From a virus: a stretch of 44,226 bases of DNA. The notes under the pieces were generated by a model. That model was not told the DNA's origin, ran no database searches, and was given only the letters and a program-made list of their open reading frames with translations. The number at the start of each line of letters is the position of its first letter. Position 1 is the first letter of the stretch. The DNA is taken from UHGV virus genome UHGV-0346409; one strand, given 5' to 3'. A program made the position numbers and the translations under genes. Of the stretch, positions 10,931 through 18,032 are shown in pieces.

Positions 10931-11043
10931 GTGAGTTGAAAATACGTCGCAAGACAATAGCACGCGTTAAAAATCCATTACCGGCCCCCGCCGAATGCCA
11001 TTTTTGTGGTGGGAATGTACGGATTGGTACGTATGTATGGTGA
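10927..11043 (+). CDS. Small Cys-containing ORF (38 aa), not in the supplied track
   Basis: ATG overlaps upstream stop (ATGA); CxxC near the C-terminus. Confidence 0.3.
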   Translation: MSELKIRRKTIARVKNPLPAPAECHFCGGNVRIGTYVW

Positions 11044-11117
11044 TTGCGAAGTGACGTAAAACAAATCGTTGTGGGTGTAATATCGTCAATATCATTGGTT
11101 TCCTGGAGGGAAAGGAT

Positions 11118-11339
11118 ATGTTTGGCGATAACCTGGAGTTACCACGGAACGGGCGGATAGTGCTCTATATTTCAGATTACAAAGTAACCCGGGCTGAGGT
11201 GTTGGAACCGGAAAAACATTTGGTCACGTTACCGGACATTATTGAGTTGTATAAGCGGGTCGGATATGTGGACTTGCATCGCGATGATGTTCCCGTTGAG
11301 TGTATGGAATGTGAACACCGGAGGTTTGAAGTTGATTGA
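11118..11339 (+). CDS. Hypothetical protein (73 aa)
   Basis: GGAGGG RBS upstream of ATG. Confidence 0.45.
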   Translation: MFGDNLELPRNGRIVLYISDYKVTRAEVLEPEKHLVTLPDIIELYKRVGYVDLHRDDVPVECMECEHRRFEVD

Positions 11340-11431
11340 ATTGACTTAGAAAAAGCCCGGGGCTATAGTTTCCGCGCAGCCGCAAAATCGGTTGCCGGGA
11401 TTTGCACCCCGGATATCTAAAAGGCGACAAC

Positions 11432-11451
11432 GACGCGCCAGCGTCTTTTTT
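11432..11451 (+). terminator. Rho-independent terminator candidate
   Basis: GACGC-GCCA-GCGTC hairpin followed by TTTTTT. Confidence 0.5.
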
Positions 11452-11611
11452 ATTGTCGTGCGCACAGCCACATCCGCGATTTATGGTGGGGCGTGTAGGG
11501 GAGTCGAAAGGCTCGCCGGGTCCTTTTAGCCGGTAGTGCAAACCCTGCATGTCTCACCACCCAAAGATTTGCACCTGAGGGGGGTGATTATCCGACTAAA
11601 AGGAAATCGCT

Positions 11612-12406
11612 ATGACAACTCAAGTATCCGCAGCAGCCATCTCCCCGATTATCCACAACCAACTTCCCGTCCTCACCACCGAATTACTCGCGAATCTCTA
11701 TGGCACAGAGCCGGATTACATTCGTAAAAACCATAACCGGAACTCAGAGCGATTCGTGGTCGGGAAGCATTACTTTTTGCTCGAAGGTGAGGAGTTGCGC
11801 GAATTTAAGCACAGCATGTCTTTAAGACCTCCTGTGAAAATCGCCAGAAATGTCCGCTCTCTCATCCTCTGGACAGAACGCGGCGCAGCTCGCCATGCCA
11901 AAATGCTGGAAACAGAACAGGCCTGGGAAGTTTTCGAAAAGCTGGAAGATTGTTATTTTAGCCAGCGTCCAGAGAGGCGGAGTACAACCACCGATGACCG
12001 CACTCCCTTACGTGATGCCGTTAATATGCTGGTCGGTAAGAAAGGCATGATGTATCCCGATGCCTACACCATGATTCACCAACGTTTCGCCGTCTCTCAC
12101 ATAGAACAACTGTCACAGACGCAAATGTTAGAGGCGATTGAATACATCCACTGCCTGCTACTCGATGAAAATCAGCCAACCATTCCAGATTTTTCTTTTA
12201 TCACCACTATCAAAAATGGAAAAGTGACCAGGATGCGCCATGTTGCCAAAGGCGAACATCTGATGACGTTTGACGCTTTCAAAGAGATCGCTGAGCGGGC
12301 AGGGTATCTGGTGATCCACAGCGACAACCTGCGAAGTATGACGCTGGATAAATTGATGGTAATGGGGAAAAAGTCGGTTGTATCCGTTGCTGATTCAGCA
12401 TTTTGA
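11612..12406 (+). CDS. Antirepressor-like protein with ORF6N/Bro-N-type N-terminal domain
   Basis: N-terminal segment (LPVLTTELLANLYGTEPDYIRKNHNRNSERFVVGKHYFLLEGEELREFK) matches the ORF6N-type antirepressor N-domain by recall; own transcription unit after a terminator. Confidence 0.5.
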   Translation: MTTQVSAAAISPIIHNQLPVLTTELLANLYGTEPDYIRKNHNRNSERFVVGKHYFLLEGEELREFKHSMSLRPPVKIARNVRSLILWTERGAARHAKMLETEQAWEVFEKLEDCYFSQRPERRSTTTDDRTPLRDAVNMLVGKKGMMYPDAYTMIHQRFAVSHIEQLSQTQMLEAIEYIHCLLLDENQPTIPDFSFITTIKNGKVTRMRHVAKGEHLMTFDAFKEIAERAGYLVIHSDNLRSMTLDKLMVMGKKSVVSVADSAF

Positions 12407-12440
12407 CAGGTTGAATGTTTGGCGCGGTTATACTCTATTT

Positions 12441-12515
12441 GCGCTTAAAAAGGTATTTAGTCACAACCAGCACGAGGCCGAATACTCTGTCAAAGTACCG
12501 CCCATGTAAAACTGT
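12441..12515. repeat. Left copy of ~75-bp imperfect direct repeat; decayed remnant of the 3' end of a membrane-protein gene
   Basis: Aligns with 16042-16117 with 4 substitutions and 1 single-base indel; would encode ..FGLVLVVTKYLFKRK-stop on the minus strand but the frame is broken upstream. Confidence 0.7.
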
Positions 12516-12583
12516 TACGTATGTACTTGATGACTAAGCTGGCACCAGGTTAACACCAGGCGCCAGCTTGAAGGAAACTTCAG

Positions 12584-13507
12584 TTATTGGTTTCTGAGGA
12601 AAGCGATTCTTGAAAGGGTCATTTGCGTCTGGCAGTCGACCATTTTCTTGACTTCAGCATCTGTTCCCTGCATTGAAACTTTACCGCACATAGCATCCTT
12701 AGTTTTGATCCACTGACGCTGAGAAGGCAGCAACTCTTTTTTCTTCGCCGGCGTTAACCTGCCCCAGACTGTATTCAAATCAGAGTCAGCATTCGCAAAT
12801 GCCATTCGGGACTGATCAAGGCTTTCAGCTTTTTGCGGCTGAAGTTGTGCCTGCCTCTCTATTTGCTTCTCCGCCTCATACCTGGCCTGTTCCTGTGCCC
12901 TGAGTTGCACCTGTTGTTCCGCTTCAATTTGACTCTGTTGGGCATCCTTAGCCTGCTGGATTTTCTGCTGCTCAACGATCGGGTTGATAATGGAAAGCGA
13001 TGTCAGTAAAGCGGCGCCCACTGATATCGGATTATCAGAAGAGGTTTTTACAAAAACGTTTTTCTGATCGTCGGTCGCCTGCACGGTGTAGGTGATACGT
13101 TTTGAAAAGGCGTTTGCGTTGTTCTCCAAAAACAGATTTTCCATTTGCTTATCGAGATTACGATTAAAATTCTTTCGGTAAGCATCAGAAAGCTGGATGT
13201 ACTCGTTCGCAGGTAGAGTCATCGTCACGGTCCCTTCACAAGTTTTCATTGTGCTGCCCGTGTCACTTGATGTTGTGGAGATTTCAGAGACGGCTAGTTT
13301 GATCTTGTCCAGTGTGCTTCGTTTGGTCTGATTAGTGACATCAGGGTATTTATCGACCTGTTCAGAGAGTCCTTCATAAGCAGATTTTTTTAATAAATCC
13401 ATGAGAGCTGATTGGGTCATTTCCGAAGAACAACCGATCTCATCTTTTTTGTTATCACAGCCTGTAAGGGCAATGGCGAGTAAGAGTACTGAGTATTTTA
13501 ATCTCAT
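12584..13507 (-). CDS. Lipoprotein with coiled-coil Q/E-rich middle region and DUF1311 (LprI-like) C-terminal domain
   Basis: Signal peptide with lipobox LTGC; C-terminus LNTVWGRL..QRQWIKTKDAMC..DCQTQMTLSRIAFL fits the DUF1311 pattern (recall). Confidence 0.6.
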   Translation of the reverse strand: MRLKYSVLLLAIALTGCDNKKDEIGCSSEMTQSALMDLLKKSAYEGLSEQVDKYPDVTNQTKRSTLDKIKLAVSEISTTSSDTGSTMKTCEGTVTMTLPANEYIQLSDAYRKNFNRNLDKQMENLFLENNANAFSKRITYTVQATDDQKNVFVKTSSDNPISVGAALLTSLSIINPIVEQQKIQQAKDAQQSQIEAEQQVQLRAQEQARYEAEKQIERQAQLQPQKAESLDQSRMAFANADSDLNTVWGRLTPAKKKELLPSQRQWIKTKDAMCGKVSMQGTDAEVKKMVDCQTQMTLSRIAFLRNQ

Positions 13508-14133
13508 GAATTCCCTTTAGAGTAAGGATTGGTTTTTAAGACGCGGTCTGTAATCAGTTCCGAGAGCTACAGTAAACAACGCTGAGCACTGAACGCATCA
13601 CAGGCAAGGTAAAAGGTGATATCGGCAAAGGCTGTGAAACCTTTAATTCAACAGATGGGAACGGTATGCACAGGATCCTGTAACGACGCTCCCAAAACCG
13701 GAAACCTGTAAGGCATGTTTTCGCTGCTGAACTTAATATACGAACCTGCACTATCATGAACATATTTTATATCGTTATACCCCGAGTGATTGTGCCCGGC
13801 AATGGATAGTGTCCTGGAGGAACTATTTCTACTGTAAAAGGTAGACATTTAATTTCAGTGTGGAATTATTCCCTGCTGTTAATAACCATGGCTCTATATG
13901 GCACCGAGCGGACTAGTTAACTTGCCTGAAAGCCGCTATGAGTGAGGAGCGAATATTGGCACGATAGGATACCTGAACCATTTTTTGGACATGCGCTAAA
14001 AGCGAATGATTAGTTTTATCGGAATATTTACAGTATACTTACAAGGCAAGCTTGGCGTACCGTCTTGGGCGAGATTGCTTAAATTATTTTGTGGATATAT
14101 CATTCAAACAAAAGATAATAAAATGAGGTTGTT

Positions 14134-14331
14134 ATGTCATATATTCGCGTAGAGAAAGATGGCCTTCAGTATGAAGCAGAATACTTCCGTGAAGAGGATA
14201 TGGTCACAGTCTTTGGGGTTAGAGGAGGGCATTCCAGCGTGGTTCTAAATGGAATGACAGAAGTCGCGGCTGCTCGTACTGCGTTACGAAATCTTATTAG
14301 AGAAAATCAGGTTGATCCTCTAACTGATTAA
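14134..14331 (+). CDS. Hypothetical protein (65 aa), AT-rich cargo gene
   Basis: GAGG RBS; possible promoter-like elements upstream. Confidence 0.45.
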   Translation: MSYIRVEKDGLQYEAEYFREEDMVTVFGVRGGHSSVVLNGMTEVAAARTALRNLIRENQVDPLTD

Positions 14332-14535
14332 AAATAAGCCATCTTAACTGAGAGCATATTTTGATATAATTTAGATTAAATCTATTTTGAAGGTTAGTTT
14401 GGGATGAGAAGATTACATCAAAACCGTTATTACTAGCAATAAGTTGTGTAAATCAAATAATACATAATCAGGTGGTAATATATACTAAGCGTAGTAAAGT
14501 TTTTATATATTCCTGTAACTTTGTGAGAAACTTCC

Positions 14536-15201
14536 ATGAAAGCCGACAACTTAAGAATTATAGAGAATGGCAAATATGTTTTCGATATGTTCTTGGATAC
14601 TGGTGAATTTTACTATACAAGTCATGCCTTTGACACGAGAGAAGATGCAAAAAGCTGGATGGAAGAATGGCAGATTTGGGCAAATAATGTATCGAGTGGG
14701 AAAGTAAGTAGTATTTATTATATTTTACAAGTGCCTGATACTTGGGCCGGTTCTTCAGATAAAAATAACCCTTACTCGGGACTTTATGTGAAAATAGGGC
14801 GTTCCAATAATGTGCTAAAAAGGTTGTCTAACCTGCAGACAGGTGCATTTGGTCAATTAATATTACACGCTTTGGAACCAGGTGGTTCAGAAAAAGAAAA
14901 CTATCTTCATGAAAAATTTAGCAACGAAAGACGTCAAGGTGAATGGTTTGTTTGTACTAAGGAACTTACCAAGCATATATTTACAACATGGTTTAAAAAC
15001 AAAATGCTCCCACCAGAACATCAAATAAAAATAATGCAGCTCGCAGAAAGAATAGGTATTTATTCGCATGTTCATACACTAATGGGGGGGAAGCCAGACT
15101 TAGTAAACCCATCTATTAGTGAACCTTGGGAATGCGAAAAATATGTTTTGGTTGATATGATTTATAGCTCTTTAGCAAAGCAAGTTAATCATAAAAAATA
15201 A
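14536..15201 (+). CDS. T5orf172-domain (GIY-YIG-like) protein with unknown N- and C-terminal extensions
   Basis: Central region IYYILQ..GLYVKIGRSNNVLKRLSNLQTG..LHEKFSNERRQGEWF matches the T5orf172/MUG113 signature (recall); AT-rich coding sequence. Confidence 0.6.
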   Translation: MKADNLRIIENGKYVFDMFLDTGEFYYTSHAFDTREDAKSWMEEWQIWANNVSSGKVSSIYYILQVPDTWAGSSDKNNPYSGLYVKIGRSNNVLKRLSNLQTGAFGQLILHALEPGGSEKENYLHEKFSNERRQGEWFVCTKELTKHIFTTWFKNKMLPPEHQIKIMQLAERIGIYSHVHTLMGGKPDLVNPSISEPWECEKYVLVDMIYSSLAKQVNHKK

Positions 15202-15521
15202 AGTGTTACATTTTAACTATACAATTATTGATTCACTAATGAAGAGGTGATTTAGACGTATGAAGTTTTAATAAGCTCCAAGAATATTTTGTCATACATG
15301 GGTTAAAGAGTTATATAATAATATCTGCTTCTGGAACACAGCAGACAAGCACCTGCAGATAAAGGTCTGCTGAGAGCGAGAAGCGGATCATACGTTGGAA
15401 GTTGTTTAGGCAAATACGTTATAAACGTATTTGATTAAATTTACTTGGATCATAGTCTTCAATAACGCTTTATTATATTGTTTTTCATGCAGCAAACAGG
15501 TTCACAGGTAGGTAATAAGCT

Positions 15522-15926
15522 ATGAGTGGATGGAAAGAGCCTTTTACATTAGCAGAACAGATACAATTAGCATTAAATTTAGGTTATGAGGCTGTACCAG
15601 ATGAAGAGGCATATACTGGGGCATACTTCATTAAAGGTGGTAAGAAGTGGATCTTTAACATCATCGGTCTCAAAAAGACATTGAATATATCTTCAGATGA
15701 TGAACTAAGAGGGCAGGATTATGATGTTGATATGTATTTCGAAATTCGCCAAAATTGGGCACAATACCAAGATATGATCTTTGGAAGCGAAGATATCACT
15801 CCTTCACCTAAAAATGAACTTACTTCAATTTACCATGACCTGCAGGTAACGGATGAACCCAGGGAAATGGTGTATCTTTCTGATGGGATGTGGCTGGATC
15901 CCAACGGACGAATTGTACAACGATAG
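15522..15926 (+). CDS. Hypothetical protein (134 aa), acidic, AT-rich cargo gene
   Basis: ORF with AGGTAGG upstream; no recognisable motif. Confidence 0.45.
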   Translation: MSGWKEPFTLAEQIQLALNLGYEAVPDEEAYTGAYFIKGGKKWIFNIIGLKKTLNISSDDELRGQDYDVDMYFEIRQNWAQYQDMIFGSEDITPSPKNELTSIYHDLQVTDEPREMVYLSDGMWLDPNGRIVQR

Positions 15927-16035
15927 CACTCGAACACACTCAGTAATCGTCTATAAGGCCAGCACTTGTTACTTGGTCATTTGGGGTTGCTGGTCTTCTC
16001 CATTAAATCGACTAAAGTCTGTTCCATAGAGAGAG

Positions 16036-16641
16036 TTACTTGCGTTTAAAAAGGTATTTTGTCACGACCAGCACGAGGCCGAATACCTCTGTCAAAGTAC
16101 CGCCCATGTACAACTGTAGTGTTAAATCCTCAAATTCCAGCTTACCTGCGCCGTCGGCAATAAATACACCATTCATTATCAGAAGTTGGCAAGCAAGGAT
16201 AATCAGGAACCATTTCCCGTATCGTTTTTTTAGAGCGATTTCTGCTTCAAAATCTTTGTTGTTGAGTTGTTTGCGCTCATGCTCGGTATCAAGTGAATTC
16301 ACCTGTTTCACAGATGTGAACTCGGTCAAGATTTTACTCTCAGTACGGGTGACTTGTTGAGAGGGTGTAACAGTTGGAATTCTTTTGCTAGACGCAGCTA
16401 CAGCCATTTTGCGAGCTTCGGCAGCTCTTTTTCTGGCTATTCCGCGAATACGGACAGCCGTTTTTTTGGGGGCGTGCGAAACCTTTGGCTGAGGTGAAGT
16501 TTCGTCAGGAGACTGAACCGGGGTTTCATCGTCCCCCGGCTCAACCTCTTCTGCTAACTGACGGTGTAGGTTGAGGGAATCCTTCAGTCGGCGTGCAACT
16601 TCCTGTTTGAAACGGCTGTTAAAATCGTCATCCGATGGCAT
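16036..16641 (-). CDS. Membrane protein: charged, low-complexity N-terminal region and two C-terminal transmembrane helices
   Basis: Hydrophobic segments WFLIILACQLLIMNGVFI and LTEVFGLVLVV near the C-terminus; start 9 nt after the ImmA-like stop (operon). Confidence 0.6.
   Translation of the reverse strand: MPSDDDFNSRFKQEVARRLKDSLNLHRQLAEEVEPGDDETPVQSPDETSPQPKVSHAPKKTAVRIRGIARKRAAEARKMAVAASSKRIPTVTPSQQVTRTESKILTEFTSVKQVNSLDTEHERKQLNNKDFEAEIALKKRYGKWFLIILACQLLIMNGVFIADGAGKLEFEDLTLQLYMGGTLTEVFGLVLVVTKYLFKRK
16042..16117. repeat. Right copy of ~75-bp imperfect direct repeat, lying within the 3' end of the membrane-protein gene
   Basis: Aligns with 12441-12515 (about 93% identity). Confidence 0.7.
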
Positions 16642-16650
16642 TCTAAAGCG

Positions 16651-17139
16651 TTACCCCAACCTCAAGTTCTTTAAACGATAAGTCATCGCATCGTCAGATA
16701 CGCCAAAATAATGCGCCATTATATAACTTGGTTGGCCGTCAGCGTGCAGTTTTCTGACCTCATCAACCGGCATCAGAAGTTCTGCTGCGAACTTGTTCGC
16801 AAAAATTTCATCAGGATGCGTTCCGGCGCTTGCGGTTTCGCCACGTAAATCAACGTACTCATATTCATCACTATGCGATGCTTGCCGGGCGATGTAATGC
16901 CCCAACTCATGCCCACATGAAAAACGTTGACGAACTTTGTTGTCATCACTGTTTAGAAAGATCGCTGGATCTTGATCTTTTTGTTTAATCAGTGCGCCAG
17001 AAACTTTCCCAGGAAGATCGGTAATAAAAACATCTAATCCCATGTCGTGAGCAATTTTCGCTGGATCAACAGGGAAACCACGCCCGCACCAGAACGTGTC
17101 CAGCACTCGCCGGGCGTGCTCTCTTGGGTTGGTAGCCAT
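16651..17139 (-). CDS. ImmA/IrrE-family zinc metallopeptidase (COG2856/DUF955-like)
   Basis: HExxH motif (CGHELGHY) and downstream E..ANKFAAELLMP segment typical of ImmA/IrrE peptidases (recall); GGAGG RBS. Confidence 0.75.
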   Translation of the reverse strand: MATNPREHARRVLDTFWCGRGFPVDPAKIAHDMGLDVFITDLPGKVSGALIKQKDQDPAIFLNSDDNKVRQRFSCGHELGHYIARQASHSDEYEYVDLRGETASAGTHPDEIFANKFAAELLMPVDEVRKLHADGQPSYIMAHYFGVSDDAMTYRLKNLRLG

Positions 17140-17466
17140 AGCTCCTCCAGTTACTGCATTACGATTGTTGGTCGAAATATAGACAACATGTTCCGTACCA
17201 CTTTCCTGTGAAAGTGCAAATTCTGCACTTCTGGTACGATATTAACTGTTAGTAGTAAAGTCTTCCAGATAAATCACTTTAAAATCTTGTGAATTGCTTG
17301 CTTTTTACGCTGCATTGTGGATGGCTCAATGTTTCCAGTAAAAACATACATGATAATCATGACATTAGTGGTTTTTTAAGCGTCCATATGTTTCTTAAAA
17401 AAATGGATGCCACAAGAGGCCAGATGAGAACGGAAAGGGAAGGCTATTACATGTGTGATTTATTAC

Positions 17467-17486
17467 ATCTGTAAAAAAATACAGAT
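17467..17486. promoter_or_regulatory. LexA (SOS) box candidate: ATCTGT-AAAAAAAT-ACAGAT
   Basis: Exact CTGT-N8-ACAG with AT-rich spacer, in the intergenic region between the ImmA-like gene and a plus-strand small ORF. Confidence 0.5.
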
Positions 17487-17706
17487 CTAACTTGATCTTT
17501 TCATTGAAGTTTTTCTTGGTCCTGGATAGGATCTGGAGGTTGCGAAGTTTTTAGAGTCGCATCAAAGGGAAAGCCCTGACAGCGCCAACTGTCAGGGCCA
17601 TACAAAAACATCGGTTAATGCTTTCGTTGAGATCTCGGTTTGGGAGATTACCTCAACCGGGATCCCGTGTAAAGCATTCATTACCGAAAATGATATAGGT
17701 CAATGA

Positions 17707-17985
17707 ATGAAACACATCTGTAAAAAGTCACATCGTCACGACAGTATGTTTGATGTTCTTTCTGCAAATCAGGGTAACGTTGGGCGGCACAAGTGTTGTG
17801 GATGTGCCTATGATAAAGGTATGTGGCATGCATTAATCGGCGTTCCGCGTGCGGTTGATGACTCTGTTTTAGGTGATTTACCCGAAAGCCAGGCTGGGCA
17901 TGTCCGTCATAAAGATGCTTTTGAAGCATATAATATGGGCTATGACCATGGGATGCATAAAAAAGCCTACGGTATGGCCTCATAA
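17707..17985 (+). CDS. Small basic His/Cys-rich protein (92 aa)
   Basis: ORF followed 20 nt downstream by a strong terminator; about 220 nt downstream of the LexA box; weak RBS. Confidence 0.4.
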   Translation: MKHICKKSHRHDSMFDVLSANQGNVGRHKCCGCAYDKGMWHALIGVPRAVDDSVLGDLPESQAGHVRHKDAFEAYNMGYDHGMHKKAYGMAS

Positions 17986-18005
17986 TCTGGTGCAAATGAA
18001 TAACT

Positions 18006-18032
18006 AACCCGCTTCGGCGGGTTTTCTTTTTT
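18006..18032 (+). terminator. Rho-independent terminator
   Basis: AACCCGC-TTCG-GCGGGTT hairpin followed by TTCTTTTTT. Confidence 0.7.

What the first reader, a model, noticed from the sequence alone, without database searches (positions are those of the whole stretch)
12441..16117. Cargo cassette bracketed by ~75-bp imperfect direct repeats, one a decayed copy of a gene 3' end
12441-12515 and 16042-16117 align with 4 substitutions and 1 single-base indel (about 93% identity). The right copy encodes the last ~25 codons of the membrane-protein gene 16036-16641; the left copy, just after the antirepressor-like gene, has lost the frame. The ~3.5 kb between them carries the DUF1311-like lipoprotein gene and the three AT-rich plus-strand ORFs. 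This is the signature of cargo inserted by recombination at short homology, duplicating the target gene end, i.e. a moron or defence hotspot.
Basis: seen in the sequence. Interest (0 to 1): 0.7.

Follow-up and report, generated by a model that had tools for sequence, protein, structure and literature searches.

The report
Recombination scar in prophage defence hotspot
The two ~81-base repeats are real: one is the working end of a prophage membrane-protein gene and the other a stranded older version of that end, and together they mark a spot where related E. coli prophages keep swapping anti-phage genes, which is a well-documented example of a known phenomenon rather than a new kind of element.

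Summary
The repeat is confirmed: 12435-12515 against 16036-16117, with 6 substitutions and 1 deletion (blastn-short E 2e-26). The window is an E. coli lambdoid prophage integrated at tRNA-Ser. The right copy is the stop codon plus the last 26 codons of a membrane-protein (TM) gene paired with an ImmA protease gene. The left copy is a stranded TM 3' end. All six substitutions fall on third codon positions, so it began as a different allele. It is still in frame in ST131-type relatives.

The exchanged unit is not the whole bracketed 3.5 kb. The LprI lipoprotein block (12516-13908) is constant. Only 13909-16004 (36.5% GC) varies. At that slot, sibling prophages carry PD-T4-3, HEC-08, a DUF262/NsnA-like gene, or SMEK-domain and methyltransferase genes. 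E. whittamii carries PDC-M25 in a second slot.

The block is a live recombination substrate. Strain GPEC172 lost the cassette through a crossover inside it. The E. whittamii left copy is chimeric.

The window's cargo is two small units that also occur elsewhere: a 65-aa ORF plus a T5orf172 GIY-YIG gene, and a 134-aa ORF. Their function is unknown.

Verdict: a recombination scar in a prophage defence hotspot, a new member of a known kind.

The parts
11612..12406 (+). ORF6N-domain antirepressor gene. It is the left neighbour of the island and is preceded by isrK/C4 antisense-RNA elements.
   Evidence: Pfam ORF6N E 1.2e-18; phrog_4792 anti-repressor E 2e-149; Rfam isrK/C4 at 11363-11564.
12435..12515 (-). 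Left copy: a stranded 3' end of a TM gene (TAG stop plus 26 codons, with a 1-nt deletion after about position 49). Its inner end is joined abruptly to the LprI 3' flank.
   Evidence: The junction ...ACTGT|TAC(G/A)TATG is identical or nearly so (single-base variants) in window, ST131-type, E24377A-type, HCP5S3_I2 and E. whittamii copies.
12516..12583 (.). LprI 3' flank with an inverted repeat AAGCTGGC...GCCAGCTT (about 12538-12571).
   Evidence: Read from the sequence. Conserved together with LprI in relatives.
12584..13507 (-). LprI/DUF1311-family lipoprotein gene (lipobox LTGC). It is the constant left part of the bracketed interval.
   Evidence: Pfam PF07007 E 5.4e-8; phrog_5094 E 1e-183; RefSeq name 'lysozyme inhibitor LprI family protein'; present in most cargo variants.
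13508..13908 (.). Conserved region upstream of LprI, acting as the left homology anchor of the variable slot. Homology to relatives ends at 13903-13951.
   Evidence: blastn against L002, L004, L005 and L006; junction sequences.
13909..16004 (+). Variable, AT-rich cargo slot (GC 0.365).
   Evidence: Other gene sets occupy this position in sibling prophages.
14038..15387 (+). Cargo unit A: a 65-aa ORF (14134-14331) plus a 221-aa T5orf172/MUG113 GIY-YIG protein (14536-15201). The unit ends in an imperfect hairpin with 24-nt arms (15323-15388).
   Evidence: 84-86% DNA identity over exactly this span in an Enterobacter ludwigii island and a Morganella morganii prophage at icd. Pfam. AF2 model, pLDDT 86.9. 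Hairpin z-score -3.15.
15416..16008 (+). Cargo unit B: a 134-aa ORF (15522-15926) of unknown function, preceded by a terminator-like hairpin at 15405-15439.
   Evidence: 82-84% DNA identity over this span in Proteus and Citrobacter prophage ends. Hairpin z-score -6.7.
16005..16035 (.). Remaining 31 nt of the TM 3' flank. In other lineages this flank is 120-278 nt long and contains the TM terminator hairpin.
16036..16117 (-). Right copy: the functional 3' end (TAA stop plus 26 codons) of the TM gene.
   Evidence: Identical in every full-length copy of the common and mosaic alleles compared, from the stop through nt 81.
16036..16641 (-). TM protein gene (201 aa). The N-terminus is hypervariable, there are two C-terminal membrane helices, and the last 29 residues are almost invariant across Enterobacterales.
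   Evidence: (phrog_5346).
16651..17139 (-). ImmA/IrrE (Peptidase_M78) metalloprotease gene. It is always found immediately upstream of the TM gene.
   Evidence: Pfam E 7.7e-18; PADLOC capP E 2.4e-25; the pairing is conserved in Leclercia, Buttiauxella, Klebsiella and other E. coli prophages.

Best explanation
The repeats are a recombination scar at the right-hand anchor of a prophage defence/moron hotspot.

The anchor is the 3' end of the TM gene of a two-gene ImmA-protease/membrane-protein module. Its last ~27 codons are so constrained at the protein level that E. coli alleles keep enough DNA identity there to recombine.

At some point an older TM allele sat directly after the antirepressor gene. 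One ancestral event joined it, 81-82 nt from its stop codon, to DNA carrying the LprI gene, a cargo region and a second TM-ImmA module. That stranded the old 3' end as the left copy. The event is inferred.

Since then three things have happened:
- The stretch between the LprI upstream region and the TM 3' flank (window 13909-16004) has been overwritten repeatedly with different, mostly defence-type genes, by recombination in the conserved flanks. The variation is shown; the mechanism is inferred.
- The stranded copy has decayed independently in each lineage (shown).
- The two copies, and copies in co-resident or co-infecting relatives, recombine with each other. This produced a precise loss of the cassette, a second cargo slot beside the stranded copy, and mosaic TM alleles (shown from sequence).

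The cargo in this window is two small self-contained units (65-aa ORF plus T5orf172 GIY-YIG nuclease; 134-aa ORF). They circulate separately among prophages and islands of other genera and are most likely lysogen-expressed accessory genes, possibly anti-phage (inferred, untested).
For: Codon pattern of the differences:
- All 6 left-right substitutions are at third codon positions of the TM frame (chance about (1/3)^6 = 0.0014). The stop codon is retained in register, TAA versus TAG.
- The four differences shared by several lineages are all third-position. Lineage-specific ones include first and second positions, a frameshift and a nonsense codon.

Single origin:
- The same junction (with single-base variants) is found in all lineages, including E. 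whittamii.

Conserved flanks, variable middle:
- The LprI block is conserved up to 13903-13951. TM plus its flank is conserved from 16005-16014.
- Cargo at the slot in siblings: PD-T4-3 (E 5.7e-138 and 1.7e-137), HEC-08 (1e-173), a DUF262/NsnA-like gene (4.6e-41), an SMEK/Aga-like gene, a methyltransferase, and the ST131 232-aa protein.

Recombination inside the block:
- GPEC172 matches the ST131-type prophage at 99.96% and 99.86% in its flanks but lacks exactly the inter-repeat DNA. Its single copy is left-type up to position 43 and right-type afterwards.
- That chimeric protein occurs on 23 contigs.
- The E. whittamii left copy is right-type for its first 13 nt, is preceded by the TM 3' flank, and has PDC-M25A/B (E 8.5e-157 and 4e-96) beyond that.
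- A divergent TM allele has 0 mismatches in nt 1-81 and then 17 mismatches in nt 82-126.

The TM protein tail:
- It is nearly invariant across homologues that are only 41-50% identical overall.
- The DNA is not conserved across genera, so the constraint is on the protein.

Composition and cargo:
- The slot has GC 0.365, against 0.446 for the LprI block and 0.465 for TM.
- The cargo units are found as discrete DNA blocks elsewhere.
Against: - No full-length TM gene with a left-type 3' end sitting next to ORF6N was found. The only such arrangement is a secondary deletion, so the ancestral state is inferred.
- The founding event cannot be resolved. It could be an illegitimate joint between two phages, or a single-crossover integration of a circular or foreign donor at the short homology.
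- Third-position bias would also arise if a true duplication were followed by allelic replacement of the functional copy.
- The left-right homology ends within 1 nt of the breakpoint in the mosaic TM allele (82|83 against 81|82). This coincidence is not explained by a single random illegitimate joint.
- No expression or phenotype data exist. Promoter and terminator scans are not above chance.
- The window's own cargo has no strong match to any known defence model.
Confidence: 0.7

Rival explanations
1. Literal version of the first reader's model. One insertion of the whole 3.5-kb cassette duplicated about 81 nt of the resident TM 3' end. The non-functional left duplicate then drifted neutrally and lost its frame.
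For: The direct repeats bracket foreign-looking DNA. The left copy is frameshifted in this window. A single-crossover integration of a circle carrying the block would give exactly this topology, and the reverse reaction is seen in GPEC172.
Against: Neutral drift should hit all codon positions, but 6 of 6 differences (and 4 of 4 shared among several lineages) are at third positions, and the stop codon is preserved. The left copy is in frame in the ST131-type and HCP5S3_I2 lineages. Only the right 2.1 kb of the interval is variable cargo.
Confidence: 0.15
2. The repeats are attL/attR of a small integrative element that targets the 3' end of the TM gene and carries a replacement 3' end, as phage 21 and e14 do at icd.
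For: The topology and the synonymous-difference pattern are what such elements produce (own knowledge of icd/e14/phage 21). There is a 29-nt identical core within the block, and a precise excision-like loss in GPEC172. One cargo variant carries a 200-aa integrase fragment.
Against: No integrase or other recombinase is present in the window cassette or in the ST131-type cassette that was lost. Exchange points differ between events: between positions 43 and about 67 in GPEC172, between 10 and 25 in E. whittamii, and at 81|82 in the mosaic allele. That pattern indicates homologous rather than site-specific recombination. The cargo turns over inside the interval, not at the repeats.
Confidence: 0.05
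3. The left copy is kept by selection as a functional element: a 23-codon membrane mini-ORF (MGGTLTEVFGLVLVV(T/V)KYLFKRK), or a terminator or regulatory element for the antirepressor or LprI genes.
For: It is in frame, with an ATG and a stop, in the ST131-type copies. It persists even where the TM gene is gone, as in E24377A and TUM13936.
Against: It is frameshifted in the window, E24377A and E. whittamii lineages. The second stub in HCP5S3_I2 carries a nonsense codon. It is cut down to 13 nt in L030. No Shine-Dalgarno sequence is visible upstream of the ATG (read). No Rfam match.
Confidence: 0.05

Closest known systems
Prophage-encoded defence hotspots (P2 and P4 hotspots: Rousset et al. 2022, PMC9122126; Vassallo et al. 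2022, bioRxiv 10.1101/2022.05.12.491691)
   Same: A fixed position in closely related prophages, bounded by conserved genes, carries many unrelated and often AT-rich gene sets. These include validated or candidate anti-phage systems: here PD-T4-3, HEC-08, PDC-M25 and DUF262.
   Different: The phage family is different (a lambdoid prophage at tRNA-Ser, with the hotspot between the antirepressor gene and the DUF1367/DUF1364/Q-antiterminator late-regulatory genes). The anchors are themselves accessory genes (LprI, ImmA-TM), not core phage genes. A stranded partial copy of one anchor is present and takes part in recombination.
Morons and mosaic joints of lambdoid phages (Juhala et al. 2000; Hendrix's model of illegitimate recombination plus selection; conserved 'boundary' sequences at module borders). 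Cited from own knowledge.
   Same: Small self-contained units of deviant composition with hairpin ends lie between phage genes. Mosaic boundaries fall at gene ends. Short conserved stretches are used for homologous exchange.
   Different: Here the joint left an 81-nt relic that can be dated relative to lineage splits and can be shown to have been reused several times. The genes flanking the cargo are not adjacent in any ancestral-looking relative.
Duplicated, synonymously diverged icd 3' end created by integration of e14 and phage 21 (own knowledge)
   Same: A direct repeat made of a working gene 3' end and a displaced allelic 3' end that differs mainly at silent sites.
   Different: That case is integrase-mediated at a defined att core in a host gene. 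Here there is no integrase, the exchange points vary, and the target is a phage accessory gene.
PD-T4-3 and other GIY-YIG defence nucleases
   Same: The window's main cargo protein belongs to the GIY-YIG superfamily (T5orf172/MUG113) and sits in a slot that holds PD-T4-3 in sibling prophages.

Membership tests
Prophage defence/accessory hotspot | Conserved flanks in closely related prophages | tested here: met
   The LprI block is conserved up to 13903-13951, and TM plus its flank from 16005-16014, at 90-99% identity in L002, L004-L006, L026, L028 and L030.
Prophage defence/accessory hotspot | Unrelated gene content at the same position in different relatives | tested here: met
   At least seven cargo types were seen.
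Prophage defence/accessory hotspot | Enrichment for known or candidate anti-phage systems | tested here: met
   PD-T4-3 E 5.7e-138 and 1.7e-137; HEC-08 E 1e-173; NsnA-like DUF262 E 4.6e-41; PDC-M25A/B E 8.5e-157 and 4e-96.
Prophage defence/accessory hotspot | The cargo of this particular window protects against phage | not testable with these tools
   Only weak PADLOC hits (PDC-S57 E 0.0037). A plaque assay is needed.
Transposon/IS target-site duplication | A short exact duplication (2-14 bp) flanking terminal inverted repeats and a transposase | tested here: not met
   The repeat is 81 nt and imperfect. There are no terminal inverted repeats at the cassette ends. No transposase is present in the window cassette.
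Integrase-mediated integrative element (attL/attR) | A recombinase gene inside the element | tested here: not met
   None of the ORFs in the window cassette (Pfam scan) has a recombinase domain, and none is annotated in the ST131-type cassette.
Integrase-mediated integrative element (attL/attR) | Exchange confined to one core position | tested here: not met
   Three events map to three different intervals of the block.
Integron gene cassette | An attC site (R''/L''...L'/R' with a GTTRRRY core) and an IntI/attI platform | tested here: not met
   No Rfam match in 10.5-19.5 kb at E<=1 other than isrK/C4. The hairpin at 15323-15388 has no GTTRRRY core nearby (read). No integrase is present. No dedicated attC finder was available.
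Moron (autonomous unit inserted between genes that are adjacent in related phages) | The flanking genes are adjacent in a relative that never had the insert | tested here: inconclusive
   The only relative with ORF6N next to TM (GPEC172) is a secondary deletion carrying a chimeric copy.
Moron (autonomous unit inserted between genes that are adjacent in related phages) | Own promoter and terminator; deviant composition | tested here: inconclusive
   The composition is clearly deviant. Strong hairpins lie at the unit ends. Promoter and terminator scan counts are not above shuffles.
GIY-YIG / T5orf172 nucleases (cargo protein 14536-15201) | Pfam domain above the curated threshold and conserved motif residues | tested here: met
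PD-T4-3 defence system (cargo protein 14536-15201) | Match to the PD-T4-3 profile | tested here: not met
   The window protein has no PD-T4-3 hit, whereas sibling cargo proteins hit it at about 1e-137.

The most novel reading that the evidence does not exclude
The conserved TM 3' block, together with its 3' flank, may work as a portable landing pad. Cassette units that end in a copy of the block could pop out by recombination between copies and re-enter any prophage carrying an ImmA-TM module. That would build tandem arrays of defence cassettes by homologous recombination alone, a recombinase-free analogue of integron cassette traffic. Exchanges would pile up at the end of homology, which would account for the coincident 81|82 and 82|83 breakpoints. 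Three architectures fit this reading: E. whittamii (PDC-M25 - block - LprI/T5orf172 - block - TM), the two-stub arrangement in HCP5S3_I2, and the GPEC172 deletion. In the same reading, the uncharacterised 65-aa/T5orf172 pair would be a new anti-phage system.
Probability: 0.2. Interest if true: 0.6.

Novelty: new member of a known kind. Interest (0 to 1): 0.4.

Why it matters
This defines a previously unlisted, easily searchable defence hotspot in a prophage family. That family is present in several hundred of 5,426 complete E. coli genomes (452 to about 900, depending on the query), including the ST131 lineage. The anchors are the LprI upstream block on one side and the TM 3' end/ImmA on the other.

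Hotspots of this kind have been productive for finding new anti-phage systems. Here several occupants are uncharacterised: the 65-aa/T5orf172 pair, the 134-aa ORF, the ST131 232-aa protein, and the ImmA-TM pair itself.

The locus is also a clean natural record of how an 81-nt homology can mediate gain, loss and rearrangement of prophage cargo. One precise loss and one cargo gain can be read directly from sequence.

Tried and rejected
- INPHARED phages: near-identity DNA search and tblastn with the TM and LprI proteins. There were no matches to TM or LprI, so this prophage lineage is absent from sequenced phage isolates.
- Search for an ancestral 'empty site' using an artificial ORF6N+TM junction query. 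It gave 1 hit in 452 genomes, which proved to be a secondary deletion.
- GTDB species-representative scan with the TM alignment. Only 3 loci were returned.
- Test of whether the three cargo ORFs form one system. Rejected. The 134-aa ORF travels alone. The 65-aa ORF accompanies T5orf172 only in close relatives (88-90% identity). More distant T5orf172 homologues stand alone in a PARIS-adjacent island, a Vibrio cassette array and an inovirus prophage.
- Idea that a 68-codon antisense ORF running from the TM 3' flank through the block explains the block's conservation. Rejected. Its frame is not kept between flank types, the flank is missing in this window, and the block DNA is not conserved across genera.
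- A boundary motif, GCTNNGAGYGAGRAGCGRAT, shared by the left slot edge and the end of cargo unit A. The pattern was derived from those two sites, so the test is circular. My rough chance estimate is about 0.1. Not pursued.
- attC-like reading of the hairpin at 15323-15388. No core motifs were found.
- PDB sequence searches and NCBIfam scans of the cargo proteins were uninformative.

Full report
**Observation.** The two copies are real. The left copy is 12435-12515 and the right copy is 16036-16117. They differ by six substitutions and a 1-nt deletion in the left copy. blastn-short gives E = 1.9e-26 within the window. Every other repeat in 9-21 kb is at most 27 nt and at most 81% identical. Exact repeated 14-mers number 19, against 0.39 expected from shuffles.

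The right copy is the TAA stop plus the last 26 codons of ORF 16036-16641 on the minus strand. The left copy lies 29 nt after the ORF6N antirepressor gene. Between the copies lie an LprI/DUF1311 lipoprotein gene on the minus strand and three plus-strand ORFs. GC is 0.365 across 13909-16004, 0.446 for the LprI block, 0.465 for the TM gene and about 0.50 for the replication-gene flank.

**Context.** The window is a lambdoid prophage integrated at tRNA-Ser next to mtfA. It is 100% identical over 11000-18000 to several complete E. coli chromosomes. Hundreds of other genomes, including ST131 strains, carry a sister prophage with the same layout but different DNA in the AT-rich part. The island lies between the replication/antirepressor genes and the DUF1367, DUF1364 and Q-antiterminator genes.

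**What the left copy is.** In the TM reading frame, all six substitutions between the window's left and right copies fall on third codon positions. Five leave the amino acid or the stop unchanged (TAA versus TAG, in register) and one is L>F. The chance of six out of six is about 0.0014.

The ST131-type left copy has no indel, is in frame, and still has 7 of 10 differences at third positions. Differences shared by several lineages are all third-position. Lineage-specific ones include first and second positions, the frameshift in the window/E24377A/E. whittamii lineage, and a nonsense codon in a second stub in strain HCP5S3_I2.

So the left copy started as the 3' end of a different, functional TM allele and has decayed since. 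The inner junction (...ACTGT|TAC(G/A)TATG, the start of the LprI 3' flank) is the same, apart from single-base variants, in all lineages examined. That indicates a single founding event.

Third-position bias would also be seen if a true duplication were followed by allelic replacement of the working copy. I cannot separate that from a joint between two different phages, nor from a single-crossover integration of a donor carrying the block.

**What actually varies.** Homology between the window and five sibling prophages runs from the antirepressor gene through the left copy and LprI to 13903-13951. It resumes at 16005-16014, about 22-31 nt beyond the TM stop codon. So the bracketed 3.5 kb is not the exchanged unit. 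LprI and its upstream region are the left anchor, and the TM 3' flank and gene are the right anchor.

The slot holds the following in different relatives:

| Relative | Cargo at the slot |
|---|---|
| TUM13936, E24377A | PD-T4-3 (PADLOC E 5.7e-138) plus an HNH protein |
| IMG/VR contig L026 | PD-T4-3 plus DUF6650; LprI truncated |
| M21816 | HEC-08/DUF3644 (E 1e-173), an ETEC_3214-family protein, an integrase fragment |
| HCP5S3_I2 | DUF262/GmrSD_N NsnA-like gene (E 4.6e-41), an IS3 element |
| L030 | SMEK-domain and methyltransferase genes; only 13 nt of the left copy survive |
| ST131 type | one 232-aa protein |

This is the pattern of a prophage defence hotspot as described for P2 and P4 (PMC9122126; bioRxiv 10.1101/2022.05.12.491691).

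**The block is a live recombination substrate.** Four observations support this.

- *Loss in GPEC172.* An artificial 'ORF6N directly joined to TM' query found one genome out of 452 with that arrangement, GPEC172. Its flanks are 99.96% and 99.86% identical to the ST131-type prophage, and it lacks exactly the inter-repeat DNA. Its single copy carries the left-type bases at positions 1-43 and right-type bases thereafter. This is a crossover inside the 29-nt identical stretch, so it is a secondary precise loss and not an empty ancestral site. The resulting chimeric protein is recorded on 23 contigs, so it is not an assembly artefact.
- *Gain in E. whittamii.* The left copy is right-type for its first 13 nt. 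It is preceded by the TM 3' flank and, beyond that, by a PDC-M25A/B candidate defence pair (E 8.5e-157 and 4e-96) inserted between ORF6N and the stranded copy. A new cassette was therefore acquired using the stranded copy as the homology.
- *Mosaic TM allele.* A divergent full-length TM allele (L030 and the E. whittamii right copy) has no mismatch in nt 1-81 from the stop, then 17 mismatches in nt 82-126. That is a mosaic breakpoint within one nucleotide of the end of the left-right homology.
- *Two stubs in HCP5S3_I2.* This prophage has two flank-plus-block stubs and no TM gene at all.

The coincidence of the breakpoints is not explained by a single random joint. One possibility is that exchanges between a stub and a full gene resolve at the end of homology. 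This was not tested.

**Why this stretch.** TM homologues occur only in Enterobacterales. Their N-terminal parts are hypervariable, but the last 29 residues (LTLQLYMGGTLTEVFGLVLVVTKYLFKRK) are nearly invariant even at 41-50% overall identity. The DNA of the block is not conserved across genera, nor in a more distant E. coli allele. So the constraint is on the protein, and closely related alleles simply retain enough identity there to recombine.

TM is always preceded by an ImmA/IrrE protease gene (Pfam E 7.7e-18; PADLOC capP E 2.4e-25). The pair occurs at other places in other elements:
- between tRNA-Ser and int in another E. coli prophage;
- next to int in Klebsiella;
- in a Leclercia island.

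The 'target gene' is therefore itself mobile cargo of unknown function.

**The window's cargo.** The slot consists of two DNA units found elsewhere with the same ends.

- *Unit A, 14038-15387.* It carries the 65-aa ORF and the 221-aa T5orf172/MUG113 GIY-YIG protein. It is 84-86% identical to DNA in an Enterobacter ludwigii island and a Morganella prophage at icd. It ends in an imperfect hairpin with 24-nt arms (z-score -3.15).
- *Unit B, 15416-16008.* It carries the 134-aa ORF. It is 82-84% identical to DNA at Proteus and Citrobacter prophage ends. A strong hairpin separates the two units (z-score -6.7).

No known defence model matches these proteins strongly. A role in phage exclusion is plausible by position but untested.

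**Rivals.**
- A transposon-type target duplication is excluded by the length and imperfection of the repeat and by the absence of inverted repeats and a transposase.
- An integrase-driven element is unlikely. No recombinase is present in the window cassette or in the ST131-type cassette that was lost, and the exchange points differ between events.
- A functional mini-ORF or regulatory role for the left copy is unlikely, given its independent inactivation and truncation in several lineages.
- An attC-type cassette boundary was not supported.

**Verdict.** It needs correcting on three points: what the left copy is (an allelic relic, decayed only secondarily), what the mobile unit is (about 2.1 kb, not 3.5 kb), and what the one 'empty' relative represents (a secondary deletion).

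This is a new, well-resolved member of a known kind. It is of moderate interest as a searchable hotspot in a very common E. coli prophage, and as a natural record of cargo gain and loss through an 81-nt homology.

Noticed in passing
window 11363-11564 (+): Rfam isrK (76 bits, E 2e-15), C4 antisense RNA (73.6 bits) and c4 a1/b1 target elements sit immediately upstream of the ORF6N antirepressor gene. This looks like a P1/P7 immI-like or Gifsy-1 isrK-anrP-like antisense-controlled antirepressor module.
   Followed up: no
window 13476-13507, PAM at 13473-13475: A type I-E CRISPR spacer (GCGAGTAAGAGTACTGAGTATTTTAATCTCAT) matches the start of the LprI gene perfectly, with an ATG PAM. It appears to be present in roughly a hundred complete E. 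coli genomes: the 90-95% identity class of 120 records, and all 13 sampled rows are annotated CRISPR.
   Followed up: partly
window 16054-16085, PAM at 16051-16053: A second type I-E spacer (GTATTTTGTCACGACCAGCACGAGGCCGAATA, in NZ_AP045800) matches the right copy of the repeat perfectly, with an AAG PAM. The window's left copy differs from it at two positions.
   Followed up: partly
window 16036-17139 (-); loci L010, L019-L024: The ImmA protease and TM protein form a conserved two-gene module with no HTH partner. It is found between attL (tRNA-Ser) and int, or next to int, in other prophages. The last 29 residues of TM are nearly invariant while the rest is hypervariable. Function unknown. ImmA resembles CBASS CapP.
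   Followed up: partly
window 16117 / 12515; L030 and L008: A mosaic TM allele is identical to the common allele for nt 1-81 from the stop and then very divergent (17 mismatches in nt 82-126). That breakpoint is within 1 nt of where the left-right repeat homology ends. Unexplained.
   Followed up: partly
window 17401-18006: There is a second variable spot to the right of ImmA. Homology to ST131-type prophages stops at 17401 and resumes at 18006. The window has a 92-aa ORF (17707-17985, phrog_3941) where the relatives have a 77-aa minus-strand ORF.
   Followed up: no
L002 7571-7848 and equivalents in L004, L006, L008, L026, L028, L030: A TM 3' flank of 120-278 nt, with a hairpin (AAGGCCCTTTGATCAGGGCCTT), is conserved downstream of the TM stop under every cargo type except the window's, where cargo replaces it up to 31 nt from the stop. 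An ORF of about 68 codons, antisense to TM, can be read from the sequences through this flank and the block in the ST131-type copies. It is probably spurious.
   Followed up: partly
L008 12637-14579 (E. whittamii): A PDC-M25A/B candidate defence pair and a transposase fragment are inserted between the antirepressor gene and the stranded TM copy. The antirepressor C-terminus is altered there.
   Followed up: partly
window 13935-13954 and 15369-15388: A 20-nt motif (GCTNNGAGYGAGRAGCGRAT) occurs at the left edge of the variable slot and as the 3' arm of the hairpin that ends cargo unit A. The ST131-type slot edge has a similar sequence. My rough estimate is that the significance is marginal, and the pattern test was circular.
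   Followed up: partly
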